From assembly GCF_017348835.2 (NCBI RefSeq), contig NZ_CP071375.1: a DNA stretch of 64,000 nucleotides; one strand, given 5' to 3'. This DNA comes from Escherichia coli. Its GTDB lineage: Bacteria > Pseudomonadota > Gammaproteobacteria > Enterobacterales > Enterobacteriaceae. The notes beneath the pieces were generated by a model, which saw only the letters and a list, made by a program, of their open reading frames with translations, was not told the origin of the DNA and did not search any database. The position numbers and the translations under genes were made by a program. This document shows positions 38,160 to 62,374 of this stretch, piece by piece; position 1 is the stretch's first letter; each line of letters starts with the position of its first letter.

Positions 38160-38320
38160 AACGTTGCTGACTGTAGGCCGGATAAGGCATTTACGCCGCA
38201 TCCGGCAATCAGTGCACGATGCCTGATGCGACGCTTGCGCGTCTTATCATGCCTACAACCGTTGCCGAACGTAGGCTGGATAAGGCGTTTACGCCGCATC
38301 CGGCAATTCTCTGCTCCTGA
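38160..38320. repeat. REP (repetitive extragenic palindromic) elements between aceA and aceK
   Basis: Repeated GCCGGATAAGGCATTTACGCCGCATCCGGCA / GCCTGATGCGACGCTTGCGCGTCTTATCA units in alternating orientation. Confidence 0.8.
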
Positions 38321-43564: not shown

Positions 43565-47248
<3,684 letters not shown>

Positions 47249-47467: not shown

Positions 47468-49099
47468 GTGTTAACGCTGCTTCACCTGCTTTCTGCCGTC
47501 GCCCTGCTGGTCTGGGGGACTCATATTGTTCGAACCGGCGTAATGCGCGTCTTCGGCGCGCGTCTGCGTACTGTCCTTAGCCGGAGCGTCGAAAAAAAGC
47601 CGCTCGCCTTTTGCGCGGGGATCGGCGTTACCGCACTGGTACAGAGCAGTAATGCCACCACCATGCTGGTGACCTCGTTCGTCGCTCAGGATCTGGTAGC
47701 CCTCGCACCGGCTCTGGTGATTGTGCTGGGGGCAGATGTCGGGACGGCGCTAATGGCGCGTATTCTCACCTTCGACTTATCCTGGCTGTCACCGTTACTT
47801 ATTTTTATCGGCGTGATTTTTTTCCTCGGACGCAAACAGTCACGCGCCGGGCAACTGGGCCGCGTCGGTATTGGTCTTGGGCTGATTTTACTGGCGCTGG
47901 AGTTGATTGTGCAGGCCGTAACGCCGATCACCCAGGCAAACGGCGTTCAGGTGATCTTTGCCTCGCTGACCGGCGATATTCTGCTGGATGCGCTGATTGG
48001 CGCGATGTTCGCCATTATCAGCTACTCCAGCCTTGCTGCTGTACTGCTGACCGCGACTCTGACCGCCGCAGGCATTATCTCCTTCCCCGTGGCACTCTGT
48101 CTGGTGATTGGTGCTAACCTCGGTTCCGGCCTGCTGGCGATGCTCAACAACAGTGCCGCCAATGCCGCAGCCCGCCGTGTCGCGCTGGGTAGTCTGCTGT
48201 TTAAGCTGGTGGGTAGCCTGATTATCCTGCCGTTTGTCCATTTGCTGGCAGAGACAATGGGGAAGCTGTCATTGCCAAAAGCGGAACTGGTTATCTATTT
48301 CCACGTCTTCTACAACCTTGTACGTTGCCTGGTCATGCTGCCATTTGTTGACCCGATGGCACGGTTTTGCAAAACGATTATTCGCGATGAACCGGAACTG
48401 GATACCCAGCTACGGCCTAAACATCTGGATGTCAGCGCGCTGGATACACCCACGCTTGCTCTGGCGAACGCCGCGCGCGAAACCCTGCGCATTGGCGACG
48501 CCATGGAACAGATGATGGAAGGGCTGAATAAAGTGATGCACGGCGAGCCAAGGCAGGAGAAAGAGCTGCGTAAGCTGGCAGATGATATCAACGTTCTCTA
48601 TACCGCCATTAAGCTGTATCTGGCGCGGATGCCAAAAGAGGAACTGGCAGAAGAAGAGTCGCGCCGCTGGGCGGAGATCATCGAAATGTCGCTCAACCTT
48701 GAACAGGCCTCCGATATCGTCGAGCGCATGGGGAGCGAAATTGCCGACAAATCGCTGGCTGCAAGGCGAGCATTTTCGCTTGATGGCTTGAAGGAACTGG
48801 ATGCGCTCTATGAGCAATTGCTCAGTAATTTAAAGCTGGCAATGTCGGTGTTCTTCTCTGGTGATGTTACCAGCGCCCGTCGTTTGCGCCGCAGCAAGCA
48901 TCGCTTTCGCATTCTTAATCGCCGCTATTCCCACGCCCACGTCGATCGCCTGCATCAGCAAAACGTGCAGAGCATTGAAACCAGTTCGCTACATTTAGGC
49001 TTACTGGGAGATATGCAGCGTCTGAACTCGCTGTTTTGTTCGGTGGCTTACAGTGTGCTGGAACAGCCGGATGAAGATGAAGGACGGGACGAGTATTAA
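47468..49099 (+). CDS. yjbB: Na/Pi-cotransporter-family membrane protein
   Basis: 543-aa ORF; hydrophobic N-terminal half and soluble C-terminal region. Confidence 0.88.
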   Translation: MLTLLHLLSAVALLVWGTHIVRTGVMRVFGARLRTVLSRSVEKKPLAFCAGIGVTALVQSSNATTMLVTSFVAQDLVALAPALVIVLGADVGTALMARILTFDLSWLSPLLIFIGVIFFLGRKQSRAGQLGRVGIGLGLILLALELIVQAVTPITQANGVQVIFASLTGDILLDALIGAMFAIISYSSLAAVLLTATLTAAGIISFPVALCLVIGANLGSGLLAMLNNSAANAAARRVALGSLLFKLVGSLIILPFVHLLAETMGKLSLPKAELVIYFHVFYNLVRCLVMLPFVDPMARFCKTIIRDEPELDTQLRPKHLDVSALDTPTLALANAARETLRIGDAMEQMMEGLNKVMHGEPRQEKELRKLADDINVLYTAIKLYLARMPKEELAEEESRRWAEIIEMSLNLEQASDIVERMGSEIADKSLAARRAFSLDGLKELDALYEQLLSNLKLAMSVFFSGDVTSARRLRRSKHRFRILNRRYSHAHVDRLHQQNVQSIETSSLHLGLLGDMQRLNSLFCSVAYSVLEQPDEDEGRDEY

Positions 49100-49188
49100 T
49101 ACCGTGACCCTGTAGGCCTGATAAGACGCGTAAAGCGTCGCATCAGGCACTATGAACAAGATGCCGGATCATGCATCCGGCAATTCAC
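49100..49188. repeat. REP elements between yjbB and pepE
   Basis: GCCTGATAAGACGCGTAAAGCGTCGCATCAGGC and GCCGGATCATGCATCCGGCA palindromic units. Confidence 0.75.
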
Positions 49189-49878
49189 TTAAAAACGGTG
49201 ACCCGCTTCCAGCGGAACCGCTTCTTCACCGGCCTTAAACACATAGGTGGTGTTCGGGCCACCCAGCGTTGCGTGACCTTTACTCACTGTGATCCAGTTA
49301 CCTTCCGGTAGACCAATAATTGTGAGTTCTGGCGCGACGACCAGCAGTTCGCGAATACGCTGTTCACGGGTTTCACCTTTATGGCCTTCCGGCAGCGCGT
49401 TGGTGAAGTGCGGGTTGATTTGCAACGGGAACAGATTCAGCGCATCGAAACCTTGTGGATCGACAATCGGCATATCGTTGGTGGTACGAATGGTTGGGCA
49501 AGCAAGGTTAGCGCCAGCGCTCCAGCCAATATACAGCGCGCCACGTTTAACCACGTCAGTAATTGGTGCCAGCAGCCCGCGCTCGCGGCACTGTTTCAGC
49601 AACTGGAAAGTATTACCGCCGCCGACAATCACGATCTCAGCATTTTCAATCGCGGCAACGGGATCGACAACGCTATGAATACCGGTGACAGAAACACCCA
49701 GCGGAGCAAGAACCGCAGCCGTTTTCGCTGTGTAATCATCCCAGGTCTGCGTTACGCCAGCGAAAGGGATAAACACCGCTGAGCGGCGACCCTGCAACTG
49801 TTCAGCAATTAGCGGCAGTGCATGTTCCAGCCAGGCTTTACCCGGCAGCGTCGAGTTACTCAATAAAAGCAGTTCCAT
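49189..49878 (-). CDS. pepE: Dipeptidase E (alpha-aspartyl dipeptidase)
   Basis: 229-aa [31 protein letters not shown]... Confidence 0.93.
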
Positions 49879-49959
49879 TACTTCTCCGGTTAGTAAGAAA
49901 TCACGGAAGGAATGCTACCACTGCGAATTTAACCACTTACTGACATGGCTCACGATGTC

Positions 49960-50110
49960 ACGTATTGCACAGGCGCTGAGACTGATGACAAACACAGCAT
50001 TGCCTGATGCGCTACGCTTACCTGACCTACCAGATAACTGCAATATATTGAATTTTCAAAATTATGTAGACCGAATAAGGCTTCATTCCGCATCCGGCAT
50101 AAACAATGTG
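49960..50110. repeat. REP-like elements downstream of pepE
   Basis: GCCTGATGCGCTACGCTTACCTGACCTAC and CATTCCGCATCCGGCATAAACAATGTGCAC units. Confidence 0.65.
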
Positions 50111-50258
50111 CACTTTGCCACCAATTTGAGCGCCCCTTAAGGCGCTGATATTTTTTATGCTTCTCGTGCAAATTGTGCTGCTTCAGCAATCAGCAGCTCA
50201 TCCGGTCGCGAAGTTGCTGGTGCGACCAGCCAGCGACATGCAGAGTTGAGTAACGCGA

Positions 50259-51488
50259 TTAATCATGGGAAATTGCCTCTGCATGAGTGAGCAGATATTG
50301 CTCCGCCTCACCGGACCAGATCCCCTGATGACGCGCCAGAATCGCCGCCAGTGCTTGATCCTGAATCTGCGTGAGTGACGTCAGCGGCAGGTATTTCTCG
50401 GTATACACCAGCTTTTTGCCGCCGCCGACGGCAGGCAATTCAAGCGTGGTTTCGCCCGCGGCATTCAGCCCAAGAATATGTGTTACCACTTTTGCGGCCT
50501 GCACTTTTTTCTCTTCGATCAGTTTGACCGCCGCGCGCATGTCGTCGGTATTGCCGCCTGACGTGCCCACGTAGTGGGTAAATGCATAATGCACATCGTA
50601 GAAATTAATTGGCGCGCTGAAATGTTTATCCTGCGGTCCGGCGAAGAAATTCAGGCAACCATCTGTCGCCAGCAAGGAAGAGGCGAGAGTCACCAGTCCT
50701 TCATTAGGCACAAAGACGAAAATATCATCGAAGCCGTGACCGCCACTCAGCGCCATTAGCGTATCAAATGCTGCATCGGTGGCATTGAGATAATGAATCA
50801 GTGTTTGCGGTTCTGATGGATAGTGCTTGCGCGCATAACTCAATTTATCGTTGTCGGTATCGGTAATGACGAGCAGCGACGGGTTAACGGGTCCATGTAG
50901 CGCATAATCAATCGCCAACAGTCCCATTGGTCCGGTGCCGCCGAGGATCAGCGTGCGCCCTTGCGGGCGAATCCCCATCGTGTGGTTATAACTACCTTCC
51001 TGAAGATGATAGTTGGCGTTGAACGCGCCAATCACGCAGGAAAGTGGTTCAACCAGCGAGCCTTCAAAATAGGTTTCGCCGTCGTATGCCAGCAGGCAAT
51101 CTTGTTCCATGACCTCGTTGGGAATAACCACATGCGTGGCTTCGCCGCCCACCCACGGGAAGGAGTAGCCGGGGCAGTCCGGGCGATCCGGCAATTGCAG
51201 GTTGGCCTGAATCACATAACGCTGACCCGGCTGGAATTTGTGCTGCCACTTTTTACCCACGGCCAGAATATCGCCGCAAAACTCGTGGCCGATGATGATT
51301 GGGTTGGTCGCCACATCGTCGGGTACTTTTTTATGGTTTTCACCCAGGTTGGCCTCTTTCCAGGAAGAGAGGCACAGGCTGTCAGTGACCACCGTCGCGA
51401 GGATTTCATCCTCCTGCATTTCAGGAAGGTCAAAGGTTTCCAGGCGTAAATCACGTTTACCATAAAGACGCAGAGCTGTTGTTTTCAT
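50259..51488 (-). CDS. sorE: Zinc-dependent dehydrogenase, sorbose-1-phosphate reductase-like
   Basis: Start taken at MKTTALRLYG with GAGGTG RBS (409 aa); GHEFCG zinc motif; last gene of a sor-type operon. Confidence 0.7.
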   Translation of the reverse strand: MKTTALRLYGKRDLRLETFDLPEMQEDEILATVVTDSLCLSSWKEANLGENHKKVPDDVATNPIIIGHEFCGDILAVGKKWQHKFQPGQRYVIQANLQLPDRPDCPGYSFPWVGGEATHVVIPNEVMEQDCLLAYDGETYFEGSLVEPLSCVIGAFNANYHLQEGSYNHTMGIRPQGRTLILGGTGPMGLLAIDYALHGPVNPSLLVITDTDNDKLSYARKHYPSEPQTLIHYLNATDAAFDTLMALSGGHGFDDIFVFVPNEGLVTLASSLLATDGCLNFFAGPQDKHFSAPINFYDVHYAFTHYVGTSGGNTDDMRAAVKLIEEKKVQAAKVVTHILGLNAAGETTLELPAVGGGKKLVYTEKYLPLTSLTQIQDQALAAILARHQGIWSGEAEQYLLTHAEAISHD

Positions 51489-51539
51489 AAACCACCTCAT
51501 GTTGAGCGATGGCCCCGGCAGTCGTGCCGGGGCGAAGAA

Positions 51540-52394
51540 TCAGGACAGGAAGCCCAGCGCATTGCCGATAATCCCTAAGCCAAACAGGGCGAAAATCAGC
51601 CATACCGGGTTAATTTTTTTGTTGAGCAGACGAACCATTAGTAGCGTCAGACCGAGCGCCAGCAAACCAGGGCAAAGTTGGTCGAGAATGTTCTGCACGG
51701 TCATGATGACGGTGGAGCCATCGGCGGCATGCGTTTGTGAAACCACCAACGGTACGTTGATTGACGTCCATTTGGTGACCAGCACGCCCATCACAAACAG
51801 TCCGAGAATCGACGCGCCTTCGGTGAGTTTTTGCAGCAAATTACCGCCCATATCGCTGACGATATTCACCCCTTTGCGAAAGCCGAGCTGGAGGCCATAC
51901 CACTTCATCGCCAGACGCACCGCGTTGAAAATAAAGAAGAACAGCAGCGGGCCGAGAATGTTGCCCGAAAGTGCCAGAGATGCGCCGAGCGCGGCGGTAA
52001 TCGGGCGCAGCGTTCCCCAGACCAGTGGATCGCCAACCCCTGCCAATGGTCCCATCAGACCGACTTTGATGCCGTTAATGGTGCCGTCATCAATTTCCGC
52101 GCCGTTGGCCCGCGCCTCTTCCATGGCGGCAGTGACGCCGATGACCGGGCCACATACGGCTGGCGTGGTATTGAAGAACACCAGGTGTCGCCTGAGCGCC
52201 GCAACCTGATCCTCTTTTAATGGGTAAAGTCGCTTGATGGCGGGGATCATGTCGTAGCAAAAGCCCAGCCCGTGAATACGTTCAAAGTTAAAGGACGCCT
52301 GTTGCAGGTTGGAGCGCAGAAACATGCTCACCAGATCGCTGCGTGTAATTTTTCTCTGTTCCATGATGGCTCCGTTAATCGTCAAGTTGGTCAA
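51540..52394 (-). CDS. sorM: PTS mannose/sorbose-family EIID component
   Basis: 284-aa hydrophobic ORF; start may be the internal MEQRK at 52364. Confidence 0.8.
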   Translation of the reverse strand: MTNLTINGAIMEQRKITRSDLVSMFLRSNLQQASFNFERIHGLGFCYDMIPAIKRLYPLKEDQVAALRRHLVFFNTTPAVCGPVIGVTAAMEEARANGAEIDDGTINGIKVGLMGPLAGVGDPLVWGTLRPITAALGASLALSGNILGPLLFFFIFNAVRLAMKWYGLQLGFRKGVNIVSDMGGNLLQKLTEGASILGLFVMGVLVTKWTSINVPLVVSQTHAADGSTVIMTVQNILDQLCPGLLALGLTLLMVRLLNKKINPVWLIFALFGLGIIGNALGFLS

Positions 52395-53172
52395 GGGCGG
52401 TGGAAGCGGGGGCCTGGAGCTGAGGTTCAGCTTTACGCCACTGTGGATTTAACTGGATGTAGACCAGGGCCATGATCACGCCGACGCCACCGAACGCCAG
52501 CAGACTGAGATCGAGGTAGCCACCTGCGAGGAAACCGAGGAAAAAGAAAGGCATCAAATATTTCACGCCCATCATACGTAGCACCATGGCGTAACCGACC
52601 ACCACGATAAAACCGCCAGCAATCTGTAGTCCTCGGGTCACAAATTCGGGAATGGCGTTTAACATATTGCTCACCATATCGGCGCTGACGAACAGCGAGA
52701 CAATCAGTGCCGGAACAGCAACGCGCAGCGCCTGCACGCCAAGCGCGGAGACATGCAGAATATCGAGAGTGCGAAACCGTGCTTCTTCCGCTGCTTTATC
52801 CGCCGCGTGCTGGAACACTACGGTGATGGTACGTGCAAACACCGTCAGCACCTGGCCTGCCGCAGCCACAGGCAACGCGATGGCGATTCCGGTGGCGATG
52901 CTTTGCTGACCAACGATAACCAGAATGGCGGAGATTATGCTGGCGAGTGCAGAATCCGGAGATTGCGCCGCGCCGACGTTCATCCAGCCGAGAGCTATCA
53001 ATTCCAGCGTACCACCGAGTATTATTCCGGTTTTTAAATCACCGAGAATTAAACCAATCACCGTACAGGCAATTAACGGGCGATGAGTCTGGAATTCATC
53101 CAGCACGCTGCCCATTCCGGCAATACAGGAAAAAAGAAATATAGCAATAATTTGTAGGGTACTTATTTCCAT
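52375..53172 (-). CDS. sorA: PTS mannose/sorbose-family EIIC component
   Basis: 265-aa integral membrane ORF MEISTLQIIAIFLFSCIAGMGSVLDEF... Confidence 0.8.
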   Translation of the reverse strand: MEISTLQIIAIFLFSCIAGMGSVLDEFQTHRPLIACTVIGLILGDLKTGIILGGTLELIALGWMNVGAAQSPDSALASIISAILVIVGQQSIATGIAIALPVAAAGQVLTVFARTITVVFQHAADKAAEEARFRTLDILHVSALGVQALRVAVPALIVSLFVSADMVSNMLNAIPEFVTRGLQIAGGFIVVVGYAMVLRMMGVKYLMPFFFLGFLAGGYLDLSLLAFGGVGVIMALVYIQLNPQWRKAEPQLQAPASTALDQLDD

Positions 53173-53237
53173 GATTTGTCACCTTTTAAGTGTCGTCATC
53201 CCTGCCTGTTAAAGCATATGTACACAGGCGCTATTAT

Positions 53238-53732
53238 TTAATTTGCGATTAACTGTTCGTTTATTTTGTCGATAATATTGATTGAGGGATCTGACGCTAC
53301 GACGCGTAAATCCAGTATGACGCCAAGATTATTTAACTCATGAAATGCGTTAATATCATCATCATCTAATGAAACCGCTTTGGTTAACTGTTTTTTACCG
53401 GGCCGCCAGGCCATGCCGCCAATATTCAGGGTGCCTATTTTTACCCCCTGGCGAACCATCGCTAAGGCATCCTGTGGGCGAGTGAAAAGATAAAAAACGG
53501 TTTCGTCCTGATATTGCGGGTTGTGATAAACCGCGACGGCTTTTTCAATATTGACCACGTTAACCTTCATTCCCGGTGGCGCAGCCTGACGCAATAATGT
53601 CCGGCGAACTTCATCGTTATAAACTTCGTCATTGCAGATAATAATGCGCTGGGCGTTAGCCACTTTCGACCAGACGGTAGTGACCTGACCGTGGATCAGG
53701 CGGTCATCAATGCGGGCGAGCGTAATGTTCAT
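53238..53732 (-). CDS. sorB: PTS mannose/sorbose-family EIIB component
   Basis: 164-aa ORF with the IIB-Man signature ARIDDRLIHGQV (phospho-His). Confidence 0.85.
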   Translation of the reverse strand: MNITLARIDDRLIHGQVTTVWSKVANAQRIIICNDEVYNDEVRRTLLRQAAPPGMKVNVVNIEKAVAVYHNPQYQDETVFYLFTRPQDALAMVRQGVKIGTLNIGGMAWRPGKKQLTKAVSLDDDDINAFHELNNLGVILDLRVVASDPSINIIDKINEQLIAN

Positions 53733-54139
53733 CAGAAATCCTCCTCTGCCGTTGCCACCTGTCTCCAGACGACGCAGGATTGCTTTGCGATTTGCGTCAG
53801 GTGTTCACACAGTTCATCAACATTCATGCTGTCCTGGTTATCAACCAGTTCGAGCGCCAGCGGCAGAGAAAGGCCGCTGATTACCCGCAAACGAGGATTG
53901 CGCATCGCAAGCATCGCTGCCGCATTCCACGGGCTGCCGCACTGTAAATCCACGGCAATCAGCCACTCATCTTGATTGTGAATGCTTACTAACTTTTCCA
54001 GCTTTACCACAATGTCTCCGGCGTTTTCACCGGGCACAAATTCAACGGCTTCAACATTGGCGTTGCCGTAAACCATCTGAACCGATTCCAGCATGGCGCA
54101 AGCTAATTTGCCGTGGGCACAAAAAATGGCGTTGACCAT
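53732..54139 (-). CDS. sorF: PTS mannose/sorbose-family EIIA component
   Basis: 135-aa ORF MVNAIFCAHGKLA... (IIA-Man N-terminal His); 1-nt overlap with sorB. Confidence 0.8.
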   Translation of the reverse strand: MVNAIFCAHGKLACAMLESVQMVYGNANVEAVEFVPGENAGDIVVKLEKLVSIHNQDEWLIAVDLQCGSPWNAAAMLAMRNPRLRVISGLSLPLALELVDNQDSMNVDELCEHLTQIAKQSCVVWRQVATAEEDF

Positions 54140-54148
54140 AAAGCCTCC

Positions 54149-54955
54149 TTATCCGCGCGTTTTGCCGCCCGCAATGTTAGTGGTTACTCCGGTGATGTAG
54201 CTGGCGCGTTCAGACAACAGATAACAAACAAAATCAGCGACTTCTGCTAATCTACCGGCGCGCCCAATAGGAATGGCGTTTTTGGTATAGCCTTCACGCA
54301 GCTGCTCGACGGTGATATTGCGCGTCCACGCCAGCGCTTCTTCATATTCCGGCGTGCGCAGTCCTGTTTTTTCCAGAATCCCCGGCGCGATACCGACCAC
54401 ACGGATACCGTGTTTACCCAATTCTTTCGACCAGGAGCGCGTGAAGCTATTGAGCGCGGCTTTGGTAGCGGCGTAACAGCTTTGTCCTTCTGAGCCTTCC
54501 AGCCCACTTTCTGAGGAAACATTCACAATCACGCCATCATGTTGTTTGACCATCTGTCGCGCCACCGCCTGCGACATCAGAAAAACACCTTTCTGGTTGA
54601 TATTGACCATTTTTTCGAATGCAGCTTCGTTGAGTTCATACTGCCCGGCAGGCGCTTTCTCATCGACCAGCAGACGCGGGAAATTGACCCCGGCGTTATT
54701 GACCAGACCGTCGATGCGACCAAAACGCTGGATAATTTCCGCTACCGTATGATTTACCTCTTTGGCGCTGGAAATATCGGTCGGCCAAAACTGATAGCCT
54801 TTATGACCTTCATATTGTCCATCGCCACCGTGAATATCGACCATCTGTACATTCGCGCCTTGTGCTAATAATTCCTCTACAATCGCCAGACCAATACCGG
54901 ATGCGCCGCCGGTGACGATAATGATTTTATCCTGCAAATTTAACCACGTTTGCAT
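54149..54955 (-). CDS. sorD: SDR dehydrogenase, sorbitol-6-phosphate dehydrogenase-like
   Basis: 268-aa ORF with TGGASGIG and YAATK motifs. Confidence 0.78.
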   Translation of the reverse strand: MQTWLNLQDKIIIVTGGASGIGLAIVEELLAQGANVQMVDIHGGDGQYEGHKGYQFWPTDISSAKEVNHTVAEIIQRFGRIDGLVNNAGVNFPRLLVDEKAPAGQYELNEAAFEKMVNINQKGVFLMSQAVARQMVKQHDGVIVNVSSESGLEGSEGQSCYAATKAALNSFTRSWSKELGKHGIRVVGIAPGILEKTGLRTPEYEEALAWTRNITVEQLREGYTKNAIPIGRAGRLAEVADFVCYLLSERASYITGVTTNIAGGKTRG

Positions 54956-55024
54956 AACAGACTCCTGATTTTAGATAATAGGGACCCGCCGTAATTTTTA
55001 TTACGATAAACATCGGGAAGATTT

Positions 55025-55972
55025 TTATTTCAGTAATAGTTCAGCTGTGCTGCTATTCGTTACCAGACAATTAATATATTTTCCACGCAGTGCACCAATA
55101 ATTCCGCTGTATTTTTCTTCACTCATGGCAATGCCAATGGAATATCGTGCCTGCTTTAATTTATTCATTTCGATAGAGAGTGTTTTTTCGCTCATATTCG
55201 TTTCAACCATTGCGCCGTGAATATCAAAAAAGCGCGAGCAAATATCGCCAGCAACCTGGCGGGCATTCAGGTCGTCACTCTCTTCACCACCATAAAACGC
55301 ATGCCAGTTAGCGCCGTCGCGAATGGCCGGTGAGCCAATTCCCACCAGGGCGACATCCAGATTATCCCAGTAGGCAGAGATGGTTTTAAAGTGCTGAGAC
55401 TGCATGATCCCATTACGAATTAAGGGGTTATCCAGCAGAGCCGGAAAATCCGCGAGATGCGATTCCCCTTTCAGCTTCGCTGCCGCGCTGTAGGTTAATG
55501 TGTTTACGTGATAGCGGCTTTCGAGTTTACCGGACGGTCCGCCAATAATTGGCACGCAGATTAACTGCCGCGATTGCCCCGCTTGCGGCAAGTTTTCAAC
55601 CAGTGCGCTCACCGCGCGACCCCAGGAAAAACCGACAATATCGCCAGGCTCCAGCAAGCGATCCAGCAGTTGCGCGCCGTGTAACCCCATCATCGCCAGT
55701 TGAGTCTCTTCATCCTCATCATTTCCCGACACCACCACAACGTCTTTCAGGCCAAACTTTTGCTTCAGTTGCTGCTCGAGCCAGAGATTTTCGTTGTAGT
55801 CATAGTTGATGGCGATGGTGACAATTCCCTGATCGCGGCCTCGTTTAAGCAAGCGGCTGATGGTGGTGCGGTAAATACCCAGTTCGCGCGCGATTTGCGC
55901 CTGCGTCATATCCTGTTCGTAATAGAGTTGGGCAATCTTCACAATCAAACGGATATCGTCACTGTTTTCCAT
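55025..55972 (-). CDS. sorC: SorC-family transcriptional regulator
   Basis: Start taken at MENSDDIRL with AGGAGG RBS (315 aa); N-terminal HTH (MTQAQIARELGIYRTTISRLL) plus sugar-binding domain. Confidence 0.8.
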   Translation of the reverse strand: MENSDDIRLIVKIAQLYYEQDMTQAQIARELGIYRTTISRLLKRGRDQGIVTIAINYDYNENLWLEQQLKQKFGLKDVVVVSGNDEDEETQLAMMGLHGAQLLDRLLEPGDIVGFSWGRAVSALVENLPQAGQSRQLICVPIIGGPSGKLESRYHVNTLTYSAAAKLKGESHLADFPALLDNPLIRNGIMQSQHFKTISAYWDNLDVALVGIGSPAIRDGANWHAFYGGEESDDLNARQVAGDICSRFFDIHGAMVETNMSEKTLSIEMNKLKQARYSIGIAMSEEKYSGIIGALRGKYINCLVTNSSTAELLLK

Positions 55973-56319
55973 TGCCGCCTCCTGGTTCTGCACATTTGTG
56001 CAAATACGCTTTCTCACCGCTTGATCTGATATAACCCCATCATGATGGCCTTTCAAAGCGATTTTTCACTCTTTGCATGGGGAGAAATAGCGCTTTCTCT
56101 TGCACATTTGTTTCTCTGCGCAGTAGTCATCAGCACAGGTGTGCAGCGATTCGTAATATGTTGATTATCCTTATTTTGCCAGGCAAATTTGCATTGTACT
56201 TCCGGAGACACTTTTGTGATAAAAGGCGTGGCAGATCACATTTAATTTCGACGTTGCCGCATAACTCTGTTTTTCCCTGCTAAGAGGTACGGTATATTCC
56301 GCGTTTTACAGGAGAATTT

Positions 56320-57192
56320 ATGCTGCCCGACTCATCAGTCCGTTTAAATAAATACATCAGCGAAAGCGGAATTTGCTCACGCCGCGAAGCGGATCGCTAT
56401 ATCGAGCAAGGCAATGTGTTCCTTAATGGCAAGCGAGCCACCATTGGCGATCAGGTGAAACCCGGCGACGTTGTGAAAGTAAACGGTCAGTTGATTGAGC
56501 CTCGGGAAGCCGAAGATTTGGTACTTATCGCCTTGAACAAGCCCGTCGGTATTGTCAGCACCACCGAAGATGGCGAGCGCGATAACATTGTCGATTTCGT
56601 TAACCACAGCAAACGCGTGTTCCCGATTGGTCGTCTGGATAAAGATTCCCAGGGGCTGATTTTCCTCACCAACCACGGTGATCTGGTGAATAAGATCCTG
56701 CGTGCTGGCAATGATCATGAAAAAGAGTATTTGGTAACGGTCGATAAACCGATTACCGATGAATTTATTCGTGGTATGGGGGCGGGAGTGCCGATCCTCG
56801 GGACGGTGACGAAAAAGTGCAAAGTCAAAAAAGAAGCACCGTTTGTCTTCCGCATTACCCTGGTGCAGGGGTTGAACCGTCAGATCCGTCGCATGTGCGA
56901 GCACTTTGGTTACGAAGTGAAAAAGCTGGAACGTACGCGCATTATGAACGTCAGCTTAAGCGGCATTCCGCTGGGTGAGTGGCGCGATTTAACTGACGAT
57001 GAGTTAATCGACCTCTTTAAGCTCATCGAAAATTCCTCTTCCGAGGCAAAACCTAAAGCGAAGGCCAAACCGAAAACAGCGGGCATCAAACGTCCAGTCG
57101 TTAAGATGGAAAAAACGGCGGAAAAAGGCGGTCGCCCGGCGTCCAACGGTAAGCGTTTTACCTCGCCGGGGCGAAAAAAGAAGGGGCGCTAA
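56320..57192 (+). CDS. rluF: 23S rRNA pseudouridine synthase F
   Basis: 290-aa ORF with S4 domain and RsuA-type catalytic core; Lys/Ala-rich tail. Confidence 0.93.
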
Positions 57193-57465
57193 TCAGCGCC
57201 TGCCGCGCGTCGACGTATTTGCTGACCAGCTAAATGACGCTTCAGGATCCGGTTTATAAGCCTGCTTTTTCTTTAACTGGCGGGCTTTTTTCGCTTCAGC
57301 CTCACGCTCGACCATTAATTTATCGATGTACTCTTTCTTAATGCTGTTGGTTTCGGAGTTGGTCAGTACGCGACCATGCGCAATCCGCGCCCGATCCAGC
57401 AGTGTTTTAAGTTCACGTTGCTCGCGTTCAGTCATCTCTTTTTGAGTAATACGGGGGAGTGCCAT
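57193..57465 (-). CDS. yjbD: DUF3811-family small protein
   Basis: 90-aa ORF; its stop codon abuts the rluF stop codon. Confidence 0.85.
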   Translation of the reverse strand: MALPRITQKEMTEREQRELKTLLDRARIAHGRVLTNSETNSIKKEYIDKLMVEREAEAKKARQLKKKQAYKPDPEASFSWSANTSTRGRR

Positions 57466-57678
57466 GATGGTGCCCTCAGTGAGCCAGAGAGTTCAGTGTA
57501 CGGGAATTCGTTTGCGAGCAGAACTGATAATATTCCTTTGTTCTCTTCTTAAATATTTATCTTTCTTGATAATTGACGATAAATACAGATACAAATTTAG
57601 CGAAAAAATCTCCCCCTACAAACAACAATGATTTATTAAATCTTTATTTTTCATGTAATTAAAATTTTTTATCACTTC

Positions 57679-57993: not shown

Positions 57994-59121
57994 ATGATTA
58001 AAAAAATAAGCGTAAGAAAAGATCAGCTGGCATTACTCTCCAGAAACGGCGATTACTACAAAGTGCTGCATGCAGGCGAGCATATTTTACCCTGGTTAAA
58101 TACCCCGGAAGTGTTGCTGATTACGCTGGATGGTAGCGAAGTTCCCGACGTGCTTGCGGATTATTTGCGCCGCTTTCAGCCTGATTGGGTGGAGAAATAT
58201 TGCCTGGTGGCAGACTTGTCGGAGACTGAAGCCGGGGTGTTGTATATGGACGGTATTTTGTTGGAGATCCTGCCGCCATCAACGCGTCGTTTGTACTGGC
58301 GTGTAGAGGATGATTTGACGCTGGTGCGGATGAATACGCAGCAAGTCCCGGTACAAACGGAGGTGATGAATGCGGTATTACAGCCACGGCGCAAAGGAGT
58401 TGTTAAAGGCCGCGATGCGATACTGACGGTGCAGGTTCCGGCCTGGCATGTAGGCGTGCTGAAAATCGATGGTGAAACGCAGGCGCTGTTACCGCCGGGG
58501 CTGACTGCGTACTGGAAAATAAATCATCTGGTTGAAGCTGAAGTTGTCGACACCCGCTTGCAGGTACTGGAAGTCAGCGGGCAAGAAATCTTAACGAAAG
58601 ATAAGGTCAATCTGCGGATTAATCTCGCCGCTAACTGGCGCTATAGCGATGTGTTGCTGGCATTTAGTCAGCTAACGAAGCCGATTGATCATTTGTATCG
58701 GGAATTACAATTTGCCCTGCGTGAAGCGGTAGGTACGCGCACACTGGATGAACTGCTGGAAGATAAACAGGTCATTGATGACGTTGTTAGCGAGCAGGTG
58801 AAACTACGCATGAAGCCGTTCGGTATGGAGATCGCTTCGTTAGGAGTAAAAGATATCGTCCTGCCTGGCGATATGAAAAATATTCTTGCGCAACTGGTAG
58901 AGGCGGAGAAATCCGCGCAGGCCAATGTGATTCGCCGACGTGAAGAAACGGCAGCGACGCGCTCGTTACTGAACACCGCCAAAGTCATGGAGAACAATCC
59001 GGTAGCGTTGCGTTTAAAAGAGCTGGAAACGCTGGAGAGAGTGGCTGAGCGGATTGATAACATCTCTGTATTTGGCGGTCTGGATCAGGTTCTGCATGGG
59101 TTGGTTAATATCAAAGGGTGA
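57994..59121 (+). CDS. SPFH/band-7 (stomatin-like) domain protein with an unassigned ~180-aa N-terminal region
   Basis: 375-aa ORF with RBS. C-terminal half (GQEILTKDKVNLRINLAANWRY...IASLGVKDIVLPGDMKNILAQLVEAEKSAQANVIRRRE...) is stomatin/prohibitin-like. No obvious transmembrane helix. Confidence 0.7.
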   Translation: MIKKISVRKDQLALLSRNGDYYKVLHAGEHILPWLNTPEVLLITLDGSEVPDVLADYLRRFQPDWVEKYCLVADLSETEAGVLYMDGILLEILPPSTRRLYWRVEDDLTLVRMNTQQVPVQTEVMNAVLQPRRKGVVKGRDAILTVQVPAWHVGVLKIDGETQALLPPGLTAYWKINHLVEAEVVDTRLQVLEVSGQEILTKDKVNLRINLAANWRYSDVLLAFSQLTKPIDHLYRELQFALREAVGTRTLDELLEDKQVIDDVVSEQVKLRMKPFGMEIASLGVKDIVLPGDMKNILAQLVEAEKSAQANVIRRREETAATRSLLNTAKVMENNPVALRLKELETLERVAERIDNISVFGGLDQVLHGLVNIKG

Positions 59122-59126
59122 GTAAC

Positions 59127-59918
59127 ATGCCATTAAATGGAGTCAGTGCTGCGATGCGCGAAAGGGTATCGCAGCAGTTAAAAGAAATTGAACGTCGCTA
59201 TGGCGTGAAAGTGCTGTACGCCTGCGAATCGGGGAGTCGCGGCTGGGGATTTGCTTCGCCCGACAGCGATTACGATGTGCGGTTTTTGTATGTCCATCCG
59301 CTGGAATGGTATCTGCGGGTAGAGGCACCACGCGATGTTATCGAACTGCCCATCGACGACGAGTTAGATGTTTCCGGTTGGGAATGGCGCAAAGCGCTGG
59401 GATTGCTGAAAGGTGCGAATCCCACGCTAATTGAATGGCTGGATTCACCGGTGGTCTATCAGCAAGATGAAGAGACGATAACGGCGCTTAAGGCAATGGT
59501 CCCAACGTGGTTTTCTCCGTTGCGTGCGCGCTGGCATTACTATTCGATGGCGCAGAAAAACTTCCGCGGATATTTGCAGGGCGATGAAGTTCGACTGAAA
59601 AAATACTTTTACGTGCTGCGTCCGTTGCTGGCCGTGCGTTGGGTTGAAGCGGGAAAAGGCGTACCGCCAATGCGTTTTTCCGAATTGCTGGCGGGAAGTG
59701 AGTTGGATGCGGCCTTACGCGCAGAAATAGATGAATTACTGGAACGTAAACAGCGTGCGGGTGAAGCGGAATATGGCCCACGCCGTCCATTGCTACATGC
59801 GTTTATCCATGCGGAACTGGCGCGTGGGGAAATTCCGCCTGTGTTACCGGATAGTAGAGAAGGGGACGTTAAGAAACTGGATAGCTTACTGTACCAGACG
59901 GTAATGCGCCGGGCGTGA
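59127..59918 (+). CDS. Pol-beta-superfamily nucleotidyltransferase
   Basis: 263 aa from ATG 59127 (a GTG at 59118 would overlap the upstream stop by 4 nt); motif GSRGWGFASPDSDYDV fits GS-x10-DhDh. Confidence 0.7.
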   Translation: MPLNGVSAAMRERVSQQLKEIERRYGVKVLYACESGSRGWGFASPDSDYDVRFLYVHPLEWYLRVEAPRDVIELPIDDELDVSGWEWRKALGLLKGANPTLIEWLDSPVVYQQDEETITALKAMVPTWFSPLRARWHYYSMAQKNFRGYLQGDEVRLKKYFYVLRPLLAVRWVEAGKGVPPMRFSELLAGSELDAALRAEIDELLERKQRAGEAEYGPRRPLLHAFIHAELARGEIPPVLPDSREGDVKKLDSLLYQTVMRRA

Positions 59919-59933
59919 TGCCCGGCGTTATTT
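59908..59933. terminator. Bidirectional terminator-like hairpin between convergent genes
   Basis: cgccgggc-gtga-gcccggcg followed by TTATTT; spans the nucleotidyltransferase stop codon. Confidence 0.6.
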
Positions 59934-59950
59934 CAGGTCATCAGCTTTTA

Positions 59951-60880
59951 TTATTCTTGTGCACTTCCGCTGATTTCATTTTGTATATGCGTTGCAATAT
60001 CGCAATTGGTTGCCGCTTGTGAACTAAATATCATCTTCTCACGCGAATACACCGCAAACTTATCTGCCAGGTTTGAAGCAAACACCTTGCTGGCATTTTC
60101 TGCTAGCAAATCGGTAACGATATCATGGTGATTTTTATCCACTTTGCGGGCGATATTTCCCGCCTCTTTGTCCTTATTATACCCTTCGTTGGTGCTTTCC
60201 CAGCTTAATGCCGCTGAGGTGGTTTTTATCATGACTTCTGTTCGGTAGCCTGCATCTTTGAGTTTTTTTAATGTTTGTAGCGGCGTAGCGGCATTACGAA
60301 ATGTTCCTTCGACAACAATATTGAGTTTATTGGCTATGGCCCTCTCTATTGCACGTTCGACCGTTTCGCCGGAAAATTTTGCCGTATGGGTAACAAAATC
60401 GTCGCCATAAGTTTGATATATATAATTAAAATCAGGGTGTAGAAATCTGAAATCATCACCATTAATAATCATTATATTATTCTTTGTTTCCCTTTTTGCT
60501 AATTCGATTAGGGCGGATTTTCCGGCTCCTGGTTGTCCACCTAAAACAAAACCAATGGGACTCTGCTGGGATGTGACGTCATGGTTTGTCAGACGCTGCC
60601 AAATAGAATCAAAAGACGCTTTATTTTCTGAATGCGCAGTATTATTAAATTCACGCTGATACTTTTTTCTGACCTGCTGGAGGCGTAACTTTCCCTGTGT
60701 AAAATCAACAAGTTCTGCTGGAGTGGAATAAAGATTGTCGCGATAGCTGACTAATTGTGATAGCTCATCGTCTGAGTCCTGAACTTGTGAGGAAAAACAA
60801 CTGTCGACGATATTTGATAAAAACGCGATGCACTGACTGGTGCCGTTTAAAAGTGCATCTTTTTCCATTAAAGTAGCCAT
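59951..60880 (-). CDS. Zeta-toxin-family kinase with ~100-aa N-terminal extension (EzeT-like)
   Basis: 309 aa from ATG 60880 with AGGAG RBS; Walker A GGQPGAGKS ~115 residues from the N-terminus; AT-rich codon usage. Confidence 0.65.
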   Translation of the reverse strand: MATLMEKDALLNGTSQCIAFLSNIVDSCFSSQVQDSDDELSQLVSYRDNLYSTPAELVDFTQGKLRLQQVRKKYQREFNNTAHSENKASFDSIWQRLTNHDVTSQQSPIGFVLGGQPGAGKSALIELAKRETKNNIMIINGDDFRFLHPDFNYIYQTYGDDFVTHTAKFSGETVERAIERAIANKLNIVVEGTFRNAATPLQTLKKLKDAGYRTEVMIKTTSAALSWESTNEGYNKDKEAGNIARKVDKNHHDIVTDLLAENASKVFASNLADKFAVYSREKMIFSSQAATNCDIATHIQNEISGSAQE

Positions 60881-60981
60881 TAACACTCCTGTTAAATAAT
60901 ATTTTTCGGTGATTATAATACTGTTCTACAGGAGTGATTTTGCATTTCAGATATTATTTAATCTATGTTTGCAGTGAGGAT

Positions 60982-61024: not shown

Positions 61025-62374
61025 TTACTCAAACAAATTACTATGCAGTTTTTGCACCACCTGCTCGGCATCTTCGCCGGGCACCAGGAAGCACAGGTTA
61101 TGGCTGGATGCGCCGTAACAAATCATGCGAATGTTGAACGGTTCCAGTACGCCGAATACCTCTTTGCCAACGCCGCAGGCTTTTGACAGGTCATTGCCAA
61201 TCAACGCGACCAGCGCCAGACCTTCTTCTACTTCCACCCGGCACAGTGCGGAAAGCTCCATCAGCAGAGATTGCGTCAGCAACGTATCGCCAGTGGAGGT
61301 TGAACCGGTGGTATCAAGGGTTAATGCCACGCTCACTTCTGACGTGGTGATTAAGTCTACCGAAATATTATGCCGCGCGAGGATGCCGAAAACTTCCGCG
61401 AGGAAGCCGCGAGAATGCAGCATATTCAGGCTGTGCAAAGTGAGCAGAGTCTGATTGCGACGAAGCGCCAGCGCGCGGAACAGCGGCGGATTTTCAGTTT
61501 TATTGCATACCAGCGTACCACCTGCGCGTGGGTCTTTGCTGGAGCCGACAAAGACCGGGATATCGCTGCGTACTGCGGGTAGCAATGTTGCCGGATGCAG
61601 TACTTTTGCACCAAAAGTTGCCATCTCTGCTGCTTCGGCAAACGCGATTTCATCAATGCGTTTTGCTGCGGAAACCACGCGTGGATCGGTGGTGTAGATG
61701 CCCGGGACGTCGGTCCAGATATCAACACGAGATGCGTGTAAAGCCTCCGCCAGCAAGGCTGCCGTATAATCGCTGCCTCCACGGCCAAGCGTCGTTGTAC
61801 GACCTTTATTTTCGCTACCGATAAATCCCTGGGTGATCACTAAACCTTCATTGAGACGTGGGAGCAGCTGCAGCGCGGCCAGTTCCGCCAGCGCGGCTAT
61901 ATCTGGCTCTGCACGACCAAATCGGTCGTTGGTACGCATCACTTTACGTACATCAAACCACTGTGCCTGAACATCGCGTTCGCGCAGGATCTCAACAAAC
62001 AGCAGGGTCGACATCAGCTCGCCGTGGCTGACCAGCTCATCTGTCAGCGCCGGAGACGTTGCCAGCGCCGCCGCTTCTGCCAGAACAGTAATGTTCTCCA
62101 GCAGACGTTCAATCTCTTCACGGATAACGTTCGGGTAACGCAGACGTTCCAGAATGGCAAACTGGATGTTGCGAATAGCGTCGAGTTTTTCGAATCGCTC
62201 GCCAGGTTCCAGCCCTTCCGCTAAAGCGACCAGCAGATTAGTGATACCAGCAGAAGCCGAGAGGACAACTAAACGCACGTTGGCATCAGAAAGCACAATA
62301 TCAGCGCTGCGGTTCATGGCGTCAAAATCAGCTACGCTGGTACCGCCAAATTTGGAGACAACAATTTCAGACAT
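61025..62374 (-). CDS. lysC: Lysine-sensitive aspartokinase III
   Basis: 449-aa ORF MSEIVVSKFGGTSVADFDAMNRSADIVL... with C-terminal ACT domains. Confidence 0.96.
   Translation of the reverse strand: MSEIVVSKFGGTSVADFDAMNRSADIVLSDANVRLVVLSASAGITNLLVALAEGLEPGERFEKLDAIRNIQFAILERLRYPNVIREEIERLLENITVLAEAAALATSPALTDELVSHGELMSTLLFVEILRERDVQAQWFDVRKVMRTNDRFGRAEPDIAALAELAALQLLPRLNEGLVITQGFIGSENKGRTTTLGRGGSDYTAALLAEALHASRVDIWTDVPGIYTTDPRVVSAAKRIDEIAFAEAAEMATFGAKVLHPATLLPAVRSDIPVFVGSSKDPRAGGTLVCNKTENPPLFRALALRRNQTLLTLHSLNMLHSRGFLAEVFGILARHNISVDLITTSEVSVALTLDTTGSTSTGDTLLTQSLLMELSALCRVEVEEGLALVALIGNDLSKACGVGKEVFGVLEPFNIRMICYGASSHNLCFLVPGEDAEQVVQKLHSNLFE

What the first reader, a model, noticed from the sequence alone, without database searches (positions are those of the whole stretch)
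50259..56056. Sorbose-type PTS operon inserted between pepE and rluF
Seven co-directional genes (SorC-type regulator, SDR dehydrogenase, EIIA, EIIB with ARIDDRLIHGQV, EIIC, EIID, Zn-dehydrogenase) match the order of the Klebsiella sorCDFBAME sorbose operon. From memory this locus is absent from K-12, and sor genes of natural E. coli isolates map near metH. REP clusters lie on the pepE side.
Basis: partly seen in the sequence, partly recalled or inferred. Interest (0 to 1): 0.45.

Follow-up and report, generated by a model that had tools for sequence, protein, structure and literature searches.

The report
Known E. coli L-sorbose (sor) operon
This is the well-known seven-gene operon that lets many natural E. 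coli strains take up and burn the sugar L-sorbose; it sits at its usual, ancestral place next to metH, and laboratory K-12 lacks it because it was lost there, so the finding is correct but ordinary.

Summary
Seven intact co-directional minus-strand genes lie between pepE and rluF: sorC, sorD, sorF, sorB, sorA, sorM and sorE. The window is 100% identical here to E. coli PE164, where NCBI's PGAP annotation names sorE as L-sorbose-1-phosphate reductase.

SorC and SorB align over their full length with the solved Klebsiella proteins. All seven proteins are 96-100% identical to those of Nissle 1917. The orthologous CFT073 operon was cloned and shown to confer growth on L-sorbose. Knock-out and knock-in work exists for ST131 and ST10 strains.

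2865 of 5426 complete E. coli genomes carry the operon. MG1655 does not.

One correction concerns polarity. The order rluF-sorCDFBAME-...-pepE/yjbB-metH is shared with other Escherichia species, Pseudocitrobacter, Citrobacter, Klebsiella, Raoultella, Enterobacter and Cedecea. There are no mobile-element marks and GC is normal. The locus is therefore ancestral, and the K-12 state is most likely a deletion.

Two small additions:
- A 112-nt scar of an eighth gene, shikimate-dehydrogenase-like sdhL, lies just after sorE. The gene is intact in 177 E. coli genomes and in most other genera.
- Conserved GCAC-N4-GTGC palindromes upstream of sorC are candidate SorC operators.

Novelty: already known. 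Interest: low.

The parts
55025..55972 (-). sorC, SorC-family regulator (315 aa) that activates the operon with L-sorbose and represses it without
   Evidence: Pfam Sugar-bind 269 bits plus an N-terminal HTH. Aligns 1-315 to 1-315 with Klebsiella SorC 2w48, E 1e-183. RBS AGGAGG lies before the ATG. The dual role is taken from Woehrl et al. 1990 as cited in PMC12817954.
54149..54955 (-). sorD, SDR D-glucitol-6-phosphate dehydrogenase (268 aa)
   Evidence: NCBIfam NF004817 at 501 bits against a cut-off of 304. Motifs TGGASGIG, NNAG and YAATK are present.
53732..54139 (-). sorF, EIIA-Sor (135 aa)
   Evidence: TIGR00824 EIIA-man at 147.6 bits against a cut-off of 98. The histidine of the AHG motif is at residue 9. 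Its stop overlaps the sorB start by 1 nt.
53238..53732 (-). sorB, EIIB-Sor (164 aa)
   Evidence: TIGR00854 at 223 bits. Matches Klebsiella IIB-Sor 1nrz at E 6e-91 over residues 1-160. The RIDDRLIHGQV histidine is present.
52375..53172 (-). sorA, EIIC-Sor (265 aa)
   Evidence: TIGR00822 at 423.7 bits against a cut-off of 339.85; Pfam EII-Sor.
51540..52364 (-). sorM, EIID-Sor (274 aa)
   Evidence: TIGR00828 at 472 bits against a cut-off of 292.75. The start is as in the PGAP annotation of the identical PE164 sequence.
50259..51488 (-). sorE, L-sorbose-1-phosphate reductase (409 aa, Zn/MDR fold)
   Evidence: PGAP gene name sorE on the identical sequence. Pfam ADH_N (above its cut-off) and ADH_zinc_N (30.0 bits, just under its cut-off of 31.8). 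Motifs GHE, CLSS and GTGPMG are present. 84-97% identical orthologues lie in the same place in other enterobacteria.
50155..50266 (-). Scar of an eighth gene, shikimate-dehydrogenase-like sdhL. The first 58 nt and last 54 nt are joined at 50209|50208 after a 701-bp internal deletion, and the frame is shifted.
   Evidence: Aligned to the intact gene of E. coli 4973 (L084 2501-3313) and of E. whittamii (L004 11223-12035). The intact protein hits NF009202 at 462 bits and HI0607 (1npy) at E 6e-113.
50129..50146 (.). GC-rich hairpin AGCGCCCCTTAAGGCGCT after the sdhL scar. The T-run lies on the + strand only, so it is a weak terminator candidate for sor.
   Evidence: Its first stem arm (about 10 nt, to window 50139) is also matched after sdhL in strain 4973.
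49969..50138 (.). About 170 bp present here but not in the sdhL-intact haplotype. It contains a convergent REP pair (BIME), with REPs at 50002-50030 (+) and 50066-50098 (-).
55973..56319 (-). Divergent sorC-rluF control region with conserved blocks. These are palindromes TTGCACAAATGTGCA (55989-56003) and GCACACCTGTGC (56133-56144), half-site CAAATGTGCAA (56100-56110), CACAAAAGTGT (56208-56218), a CRP-like TAAATGTGATCT... (56222-56244), and a candidate -35 TTGAAA (56051-56056) with -10 TTATAT/TATATC (56028-56034).
   Evidence: Alignment of 9 loci from Escherichia, Pseudocitrobacter, Klebsiella and Citrobacter, coordinates. 2 of the 3 GCAC-N4-GTGC sites in the 64 kb fall in these 347 bp. Their function is inferred, not shown.

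Best explanation
This is the chromosomal L-sorbose utilisation operon sorCDFBAME of E. coli, at its ancestral enterobacterial position between rluF and pepE, next to metH.

Mechanism, taken from the established Klebsiella and E. coli work:
- L-sorbose is taken up and phosphorylated to L-sorbose-1-phosphate by a four-polypeptide mannose-family PTS permease. The phosphate passes from HPr to the SorF histidine, then to the SorB histidine, then to the sugar, through the SorA/SorM membrane complex.
- SorE reduces L-sorbose-1-phosphate to D-glucitol-6-phosphate.
- SorD oxidises that to D-fructose-6-phosphate, which enters glycolysis.
- SorC, encoded by the first gene, represses the operon without sorbose and activates it with sorbose.

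Shown here: gene content, integrity, orthology, position, distribution and conservation of the control region.

Inferred: that SorC acts through the conserved GCAC-N4-GTGC palindromes, one of which lies between the candidate promoter and the sorC RBS and two further upstream.

The sor-negative state of K-12 and about half of E. coli is a deletion of sorC through sdhL. The window's own haplotype has separately lost the eighth gene (sdhL) and gained a BIME.
For: Gene content and motifs.

Identity and annotation: 100% identity to PE164, annotated sorE / PTS IIA-IID / SDR / sugar-binding regulator, with no pseudogene flags.

Orthology to solved proteins: SorC against 2w48 and SorB against 1nrz.

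Similarity to tested alleles: 96-100% protein identity to Nissle 1917.

Published function:
- CFT073 c4981-c4987 cloned into DH5alpha gives growth on L-sorbose, with 82-97% similarity to the Klebsiella Sor proteins (PMC2831201).
- EAEC 042 has sorEMABFDC next to rluF and uses sorbose, whereas MG1655 does not (PMC2808357).
- The operon is induced by sorbose. A sorE deletion abolishes use and a knock-in confers it (PMC12817954).

Distribution: 2865 of 5426 genomes, always chromosomal, usually one copy per genome (median 1, highest 3).

Ancestral position:
- 27 loci from Escherichia whittamii and cryptic Escherichia, Pseudocitrobacter, Citrobacter, Klebsiella, Raoultella, Enterobacter and Cedecea have rluF next to sorC, and usually pepE/yjbB/metH beyond sorE.
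- Divergence of the sor genes is similar to that of the flanking genes.
- GC is 0.516 in the operon against 0.515 in the window.
- There is no tRNA and no terminal repeat.
- MG1655 shares the spacer CATTGCTTCTGG with the sdhL-intact haplotype, past the point where the window diverges.
Against: - No growth or expression data exist for this particular strain.
- Published sorAM deletion mutants still grew on sorbose, so other PTS permeases can import it and the transporter is not strictly essential (PMC12817954).
- About 45 bp of the MG1655 spacer has no detectable counterpart in any sor-positive locus.
- The 30 bp upstream of rluF in MG1655 resemble Citrobacter and Klebsiella more than the E. 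coli sor-positive allele. The deletion is therefore not a simple excision from an allele like this one.
- The sigma-70 consensus scan found no more sites than chance. Promoter and operator assignments rest on conservation only.
Confidence: 0.93

Rival explanations
1. The operon is a horizontally acquired insertion (a genomic islet) that entered this E. coli lineage at the pepE-rluF spacer, and the K-12 state is ancestral.
For: It is absent from MG1655 and from 2558 of 5426 complete genomes. The two states differ by a replacement, about 95 bp against about 6.3 kb, rather than a clean indel. REP/BIME elements lie at one edge.
Against: - The same location holds in 27 loci of at least 7 genera, with divergence tracking the flanks.
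- GC is normal.
- There is no integrase, IS, tRNA or flanking repeat.
- The published distribution is above 86% in all phylogroups except A and B1 (PMC12817954).
- The MG1655 spacer continues into sequence of the sdhL-intact haplotype.
Confidence: 0.07
2. The transporter and enzymes serve a different ketose or hexosamine, and L-sorbose is only a side substrate.
For: Mannose-family permeases are often broad. SorE has no NCBIfam model above its cut-off. sorAM deletion mutants still use sorbose through other systems.
Against: - Orthology to the biochemically characterised Klebsiella system is direct.
- The equivalog models for Man, Aga and Gam subunits all score far below their cut-offs.
- The seven genes are the most strongly sorbose-induced genes in ST131 and ST648 strains, and a sorE deletion blocks sorbose use.
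- The cloned operon suffices for growth of DH5alpha on sorbose.
Confidence: 0.03
3. The operon is present but cryptic (not expressed or not functional) in this strain.
For: Sorbose use varies among isolates (Lehmacher and Bockemuehl 2007, as quoted in PMC2831201). This allele is rare, with only 3-5 genomes at 99% identity or more. SorA has 10 amino-acid differences from Nissle 1917.
Against: All ORFs are intact and have ribosome-binding sites. The catalytic and phosphorylation motifs are present. Every conserved block of the control region is retained.
Confidence: 0.08

Closest known systems
Klebsiella pneumoniae sorCDFBAME operon (Sprenger and Lengeler 1984; Woehrl et al. 1990; references as cited in PMC2831201 and PMC12817954)
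   Same: Same seven genes in the same order and orientation. SorC aligns over its full length with 2w48, and SorB aligns over residues 1-160 of 164 with 1nrz. Klebsiella, Raoultella and related loci show 74-96% protein identity. The genus-level loci sampled here have the same neighbours, rluF and pepE/yjbB/metH. The control-region blocks are the same.
   Different: SorF (IIA) is the most diverged protein, at 74-79% identity. The Klebsiella-group loci keep the eighth gene, sdhL, and carry extra genes between it and pepE. The window has only the sdhL scar and a BIME.
E. coli sor operon as already described: CFT073 c4981-c4987, EAEC 042 Ec042-4384 to 4390, ST131/ST648 strains, and strain EC3132 mapped near metH and iclR
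   Same: Same locus and same genes. Proteins are 96-100% identical to the B2-type allele of Nissle 1917. The CFT073 cloning primers quoted in PMC2831201 closely resemble, by eye, the sequence read at about window 50230-50259 and 56293-56320.
   Different: This is an allelic variant only, about 97% DNA identity to B2 strains and 98.2-98.6% to several other lineages.
E. coli mannose PTS ManXYZ
   Same: Same PTS superfamily. The IIC and IID proteins hit the shared subfamily models, and IIB is similar to the ManX IIB domain.
   Different: IIA and IIB are separate polypeptides here, whereas ManX is a fused IIAB. The ManX equivalog scores 63 and 211 bits against a cut-off of 400. The sor locus carries dedicated catabolic enzymes and a SorC regulator.
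Sorbose clusters of Firmicutes (Enterococcus loci L033 and L035) and of Gilliamella
   Same: Enterococcus has the same order C-D-F-B-A-M-E at 28-73% identity. Gilliamella has F-B-A-M-E at about 57-74% identity.
   Different: These are distant sequences in other chromosomal contexts. In Gilliamella the regulator follows sorE and no close sorD is adjacent.
SdhL (HI0607, PDB 1npy), the shikimate-dehydrogenase-like protein of Haemophilus influenzae, compared with the eighth gene
   Same: The intact gene of related loci matches 1npy over residues 1-268 at E 6e-113, and NF009202 above its cut-off.
   Different: In the window only 112 nt remain. Its role next to sor is unknown. It is not needed for growth on sorbose, because the sdhL-less CFT073 fragment suffices.

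Membership tests
Enterobacterial L-sorbose operon sorCDFBAME | Seven co-directional genes in the order regulator, SDR, IIA, IIB, IIC, IID, Zn-dehydrogenase | tested here: met
   Intergenic gaps run from -1 to 69 nt.
Enterobacterial L-sorbose operon sorCDFBAME | Close orthology to the characterised Klebsiella Sor proteins | tested here: met
   SorC against 2w48 (E 1e-183, residues 1-315) and SorB against 1nrz (E 6e-91). All seven proteins are 74-96% identical to the Klebsiella and Raoultella loci. Published values for the near-identical CFT073 allele are 82-97%.
Enterobacterial L-sorbose operon sorCDFBAME | Split mannose-family EII with phosphorylatable histidines in IIA and IIB | tested here: met
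   TIGR00824, TIGR00854, TIGR00822 and TIGR00828 all score above their cut-offs. The AHG and LIHGQ motifs are present.
Enterobacterial L-sorbose operon sorCDFBAME | SorD is a D-glucitol-6-phosphate dehydrogenase of the SDR type | tested here: met
   NF004817 at 501 bits against a cut-off of 304, with the cofactor and catalytic motifs present. Enzyme activity was not assayed.
Enterobacterial L-sorbose operon sorCDFBAME | SorE has L-sorbose-1-phosphate reductase activity | not testable with these tools
   Only sequence evidence is available. That is the PGAP name sorE on the identical sequence, MDR motifs and conserved position. A sorE deletion in an ST131 strain abolishes sorbose use (PMC12817954).
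Enterobacterial L-sorbose operon sorCDFBAME | Confers growth on L-sorbose and is induced by L-sorbose | not testable with these tools
   Shown for orthologous E. coli operons, not for this strain.
Enterobacterial L-sorbose operon sorCDFBAME | Map position near metH in E. coli | tested here: met
   metH ends at 47248 and sorE ends at 50259. The title of Wehmeier et al. 1992 is cited in PMC9836092.
Horizontally acquired genomic island | Atypical composition, integrase or transposase, tRNA or direct-repeat borders, variable location | tested here: not met
   GC is 0.516 against 0.515. No tRNA was found. Only chance-level repeats were found, none at the borders. It is always chromosomal, usually one copy per genome (median 1, highest 3), and at the pepE-rluF site in every annotated record examined. 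The position is conserved across genera.
Man, Aga or Gam PTS systems (other specificities of the same superfamily) | Score above the equivalog cut-offs for ManX, AgaF/V/W/E or the Gam subunits | tested here: not met
   All of these equivalog models score far below their cut-offs.

The most novel reading that the evidence does not exclude
The enterobacterial sor operon is ancestrally an eight-gene unit. A SdhL-type shikimate-dehydrogenase-like gene overlaps the sorE stop by 8 nt and follows sorE in about 29 loci of about 10 genera. It is sorbose-induced in the one E. coli lineage where it was examined (ST648). There it was described as a lineage-specific extra gene. Most E. coli, including this window, instead carry a 112-nt deletion scar of it. 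Its substrate, possibly a ketose or polyol related to sorbose, is unknown. In addition, the conserved GCAC-N4-GTGC palindromes would be the so far undefined SorC operators.
Probability: 0.6. Interest if true: 0.3.

Novelty: already known. Interest (0 to 1): 0.1.

Why it matters
The main finding matters little as a discovery. The operon, its function, its map position and its patchy distribution in E. coli have been published since the 1980s and 1990s and were re-examined in 2010 and 2025.

It is useful as annotation. This strain is predicted to be sorbose-positive, a trait enriched in extraintestinal and high-risk lineages.

The refinements are modest:
- The sor-negative state of K-12 is a loss at an ancestral locus.
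- A lost eighth gene (sdhL) has left a scar here.
- The control region offers concrete candidate SorC operators for footprinting.

Tried and rejected
- **Mobile-element reading.** I searched for a tRNA, border repeats and a composition shift. Nothing was found, so this reading was rejected.
- **Sigma-70 and terminator scan.** The counts equal the chance expectation. The best promoter-like hit (56222-56193) is not conserved in other species, so it was not adopted. The hairpin at 50129-50146 has its T-run on the wrong strand for sor.
- **Strict REP pattern.** A full-length consensus with a fixed loop missed the two local REPs. The REP head motif found them.
- **RNA structure of the sorE-pepE spacer.** The z-score was -1.37, which is not remarkable.
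- **Rfam scan of 49000-57600.** No family was matched.
- **Origin of the K-12 filler.** I looked for the source of the roughly 45-bp K-12-specific filler by sensitive blastn against all 83 loci and found none.
- **The 1992 cloning paper (PMC207494).** It is not held in the library, so I cite it only through another paper's reference list.
- **CRP site.** The conserved TAAATGTGATCT block has a perfect left half-site, but the right half is poor. A TGTGA-N16-TCACA arrangement is not a standard CRP site. I kept it only as 'CRP-like'.

Full report
**1. What is there**

Between pepE (49189-49878, minus) and rluF (56320-57192, plus) lie seven uninterrupted minus-strand ORFs. Profile searches assign them as follows:
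- a SorC-type regulator (Sugar-bind domain plus N-terminal HTH);
- an SDR that passes the NCBIfam 'sorbitol-6-phosphate dehydrogenase subunit' model (501 bits, cut-off 304);
- separate EIIA, EIIB, EIIC and EIID polypeptides of the mannose/fructose/sorbose PTS family, all above their curated cut-offs;
- a 409-aa Zn/MDR-type dehydrogenase.

The stretch 49100-57300 is 100% identical to E. coli PE164. There, NCBI's PGAP annotation gives the same seven genes without pseudogene flags and names the last one sorE, L-sorbose-1-phosphate reductase.

Homology and annotation set the true starts at 55972 (sorC), 52364 (sorM) and 51488 (sorE). The finding's outer coordinate 56056 is only the longest mechanical ORF.

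Each gene has a Shine-Dalgarno sequence. The intergenic gaps run from -1 to 69 nt. The expected motifs are present:
- the IIA AHG histidine;
- the IIB RIDDRLIHGQV histidine;
- the SDR motifs TGGASGIG, NNAG and YAATK;
- the MDR motifs GHE, Cys and GTGPMG.

Two REP elements in convergent orientation (a BIME) lie at 50002-50030 and 50066-50098. The window holds 7 REP heads against 0.57 expected.

**2. Identity**

SorC aligns residue 1-315 to 1-315 with the crystallised Klebsiella pneumoniae SorC (2w48, E 1e-183). SorB aligns with Klebsiella IIB-Sor (1nrz, E 6e-91). All seven proteins are 96-100% identical to those of E. coli Nissle 1917.

The literature settles the function for the E. coli orthologues:
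- CFT073 genes c4981-c4987 were cloned into DH5alpha and conferred growth on L-sorbose. They are 82-97% similar to Klebsiella SorE/M/A/B/F/D/C (PMC2831201).
- EAEC 042 carries sorEMABFDC next to rluF and uses sorbose, whereas MG1655 does not (PMC2808357).
- A 2025 study found the operon in more than 86% of genomes of all phylogroups except A (9.6%) and B1 (12.1%). It showed induction by L-sorbose, loss of use in a sorE deletion mutant, and gain of use after knock-in into an ST10 strain (PMC12817954).
- The E. coli sor genes were cloned and mapped near metH and iclR in 1992. I have that reference only from the list in PMC9836092, because the paper itself is not held.

**3. Distribution and borders**

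The sor-specific DNA (49960-56284) is found in 2868 of 5426 complete E. coli genomes, and at 80% coverage or more in 2865. It is always chromosomal, usually one copy per genome (median 1, highest 3). The remaining genomes have only the flanks.

MG1655 has pepE and rluF separated by 211 bp. Against that allele, similarity ends near window 49959 and resumes near 56285. About 95 bp of the empty allele therefore stand in place of about 6.3 kb.

**4. Polarity: not an insertion**

A scan of one genome per species with SorE returned 80 loci. In 27 of them rluF (with yjbD) lies directly upstream of sorC, and usually pepE, yjbB and metH lie beyond sorE. These loci come from Escherichia whittamii, cryptic Escherichia, Pseudocitrobacter, several Citrobacter, Klebsiella grimontii, K. 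michiganensis, K. oxytoca, K. spallanzanii and K. indica, Raoultella, Enterobacter spp. and Cedecea. Identity of the Sor proteins is in the same range as that of the flanking proteins.

Other evidence agrees:
- GC is 0.516 in the operon against 0.515 in the window.
- There is no tRNA.
- There are no border repeats.
- There is no integrase or IS.
- The MG1655 spacer continues for a further 12 bp (CATTGCTTCTGG) into sequence of the sdhL-intact E. coli haplotype, beyond the point where the window diverges because of its BIME.

The most likely history is an ancestral locus, followed by deletion of sorC through sdhL in the lineages that are now sor-negative.

Two details are not explained:
- About 45 bp of the MG1655 spacer match nothing in any sor-positive locus.
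- The 30 bp upstream of rluF in MG1655 resemble Citrobacter and Klebsiella more than the E. coli sor-positive allele.

**5. An eighth gene and its scar**

In E. whittamii, a 270-aa ORF starts 8 nt before the sorE stop. It passes the NCBIfam shikimate 5-dehydrogenase model NF009202 (462 bits) and matches the SdhL protein HI0607 (1npy) at E 6e-113. tblastn finds it directly after sorE in about 29 enterobacterial loci. It is also present in 177 complete E. coli genomes, where it is annotated 'shikimate 5-dehydrogenase'.

The window keeps only its first 58 nt and last 54 nt (50155-50266). They are joined at 50209|50208 after a 701-bp deletion, and the frame is shifted. The 2025 paper mentions sdhL as present and sorbose-induced only in ST648. 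The comparison here suggests instead that it is ancestral and was lost in most E. coli. It is dispensable for growth on sorbose, because the CFT073 fragment, taken to carry only the scar like its close relative Nissle 1917, suffices.

**6. Control region (inference)**

I aligned the 347-bp sorC-rluF spacer from nine loci of four genera. The alignment shows invariant or near-invariant blocks on the sor strand:
- TAAATGTGATCT (56233-56244);
- CACAAAAGTGT (56208-56218);
- GCAC-N4-GTGC with a variable centre (56133-56144);
- CAAATGTGCAA (56100-56110);
- GGTTATATCAGATCA (56022-56036), preceded by TTGAAA (56051-56056);
- the palindrome TTGCACAAATGTGCA (55989-56003), just before the sorC RBS.

Two of the three GCAC-N4-GTGC sites in the whole 64 kb lie in this spacer. 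SorC-family repressors bind as tetramers to paired palindromic half-operators with short AT-rich centres (PMC11229326). I therefore propose these palindromes as SorC operators, with the proximal one acting as a roadblock downstream of a weak, activator-dependent promoter. This is not shown. The generic promoter scan was at chance level, and no Rfam family matches.

**7. Verdict**

It is an already known system, and the interest is low.

The only mildly new points are:
- the sdhL scar;
- the ancestral eight-gene architecture;
- the candidate operators.

Noticed in passing
window 50155-50266 (minus strand): [quoted passage not shown] The gene is intact in 177 E. coli genomes and after sorE in about 29 enterobacterial loci. 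It was reported in the literature as ST648-specific.
   Followed up: yes
window 57994-60886: A three-gene islet lies between yjbD and lysC (61025-62374). It encodes a slipin-family protein, a DNA polymerase beta superfamily (nucleotidyltransferase) protein and a zeta-toxin family protein on the opposite strand. In MG1655, lysC follows yjbD directly. Strain M9 (sor-negative) also has the slipin gene.
   Followed up: partly
window 53732-54139 (sorF) and the GC trough 53000-53500: SorF is by far the most diverged Sor protein. It is 91% identical to other Escherichia species and 74-79% to Klebsiella and Raoultella, against 93-99% for SorA and SorM. GC falls to 0.42 around sorB and the sorB-sorA spacer. 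The 2025 paper also notes four sorF clusters.
   Followed up: no
L086 (MG1655) 4244-4330 compared with window 56250-56290: The roughly 30 bp upstream of the rluF promoter region in the sor-negative allele (GACTATTTTTTATCAACCCAAAGG) resemble Citrobacter and Klebsiella sor-positive loci more than the E. coli sor-positive allele. About 45 bp of the MG1655 spacer have no detectable source.
   Followed up: partly
L002 3355-3486 compared with window 57192/57193: K-12-type genomes carry about 132 extra bp between the convergent rluF and yjbD genes. In the window and in strain M9 the two genes abut.
   Followed up: no
E. coli records H32 (YPE3), H51 (K_EC180) and H70 (HS-01): Some strains have a sor operon that appears interrupted by an insertion of about 0.8 kb (an IS1 family transposase is annotated under the match in K_EC180). 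Strain HS-01 keeps only an 8% remnant at 93% identity.
   Followed up: no
L033, L035 (Enterococcus) and L036-L047 (Gilliamella): Enterococcus crotali and E. ureilyticus have the same C-D-F-B-A-M-E order at 28-73% protein identity. Gilliamella has F-B-A-M-E followed by the regulator, with no close sorD adjacent.
   Followed up: no
window 49139-49148: A further REP head lies in the short yjbB-pepE spacer. A cluster of three lies at 38197-38304.
   Followed up: no
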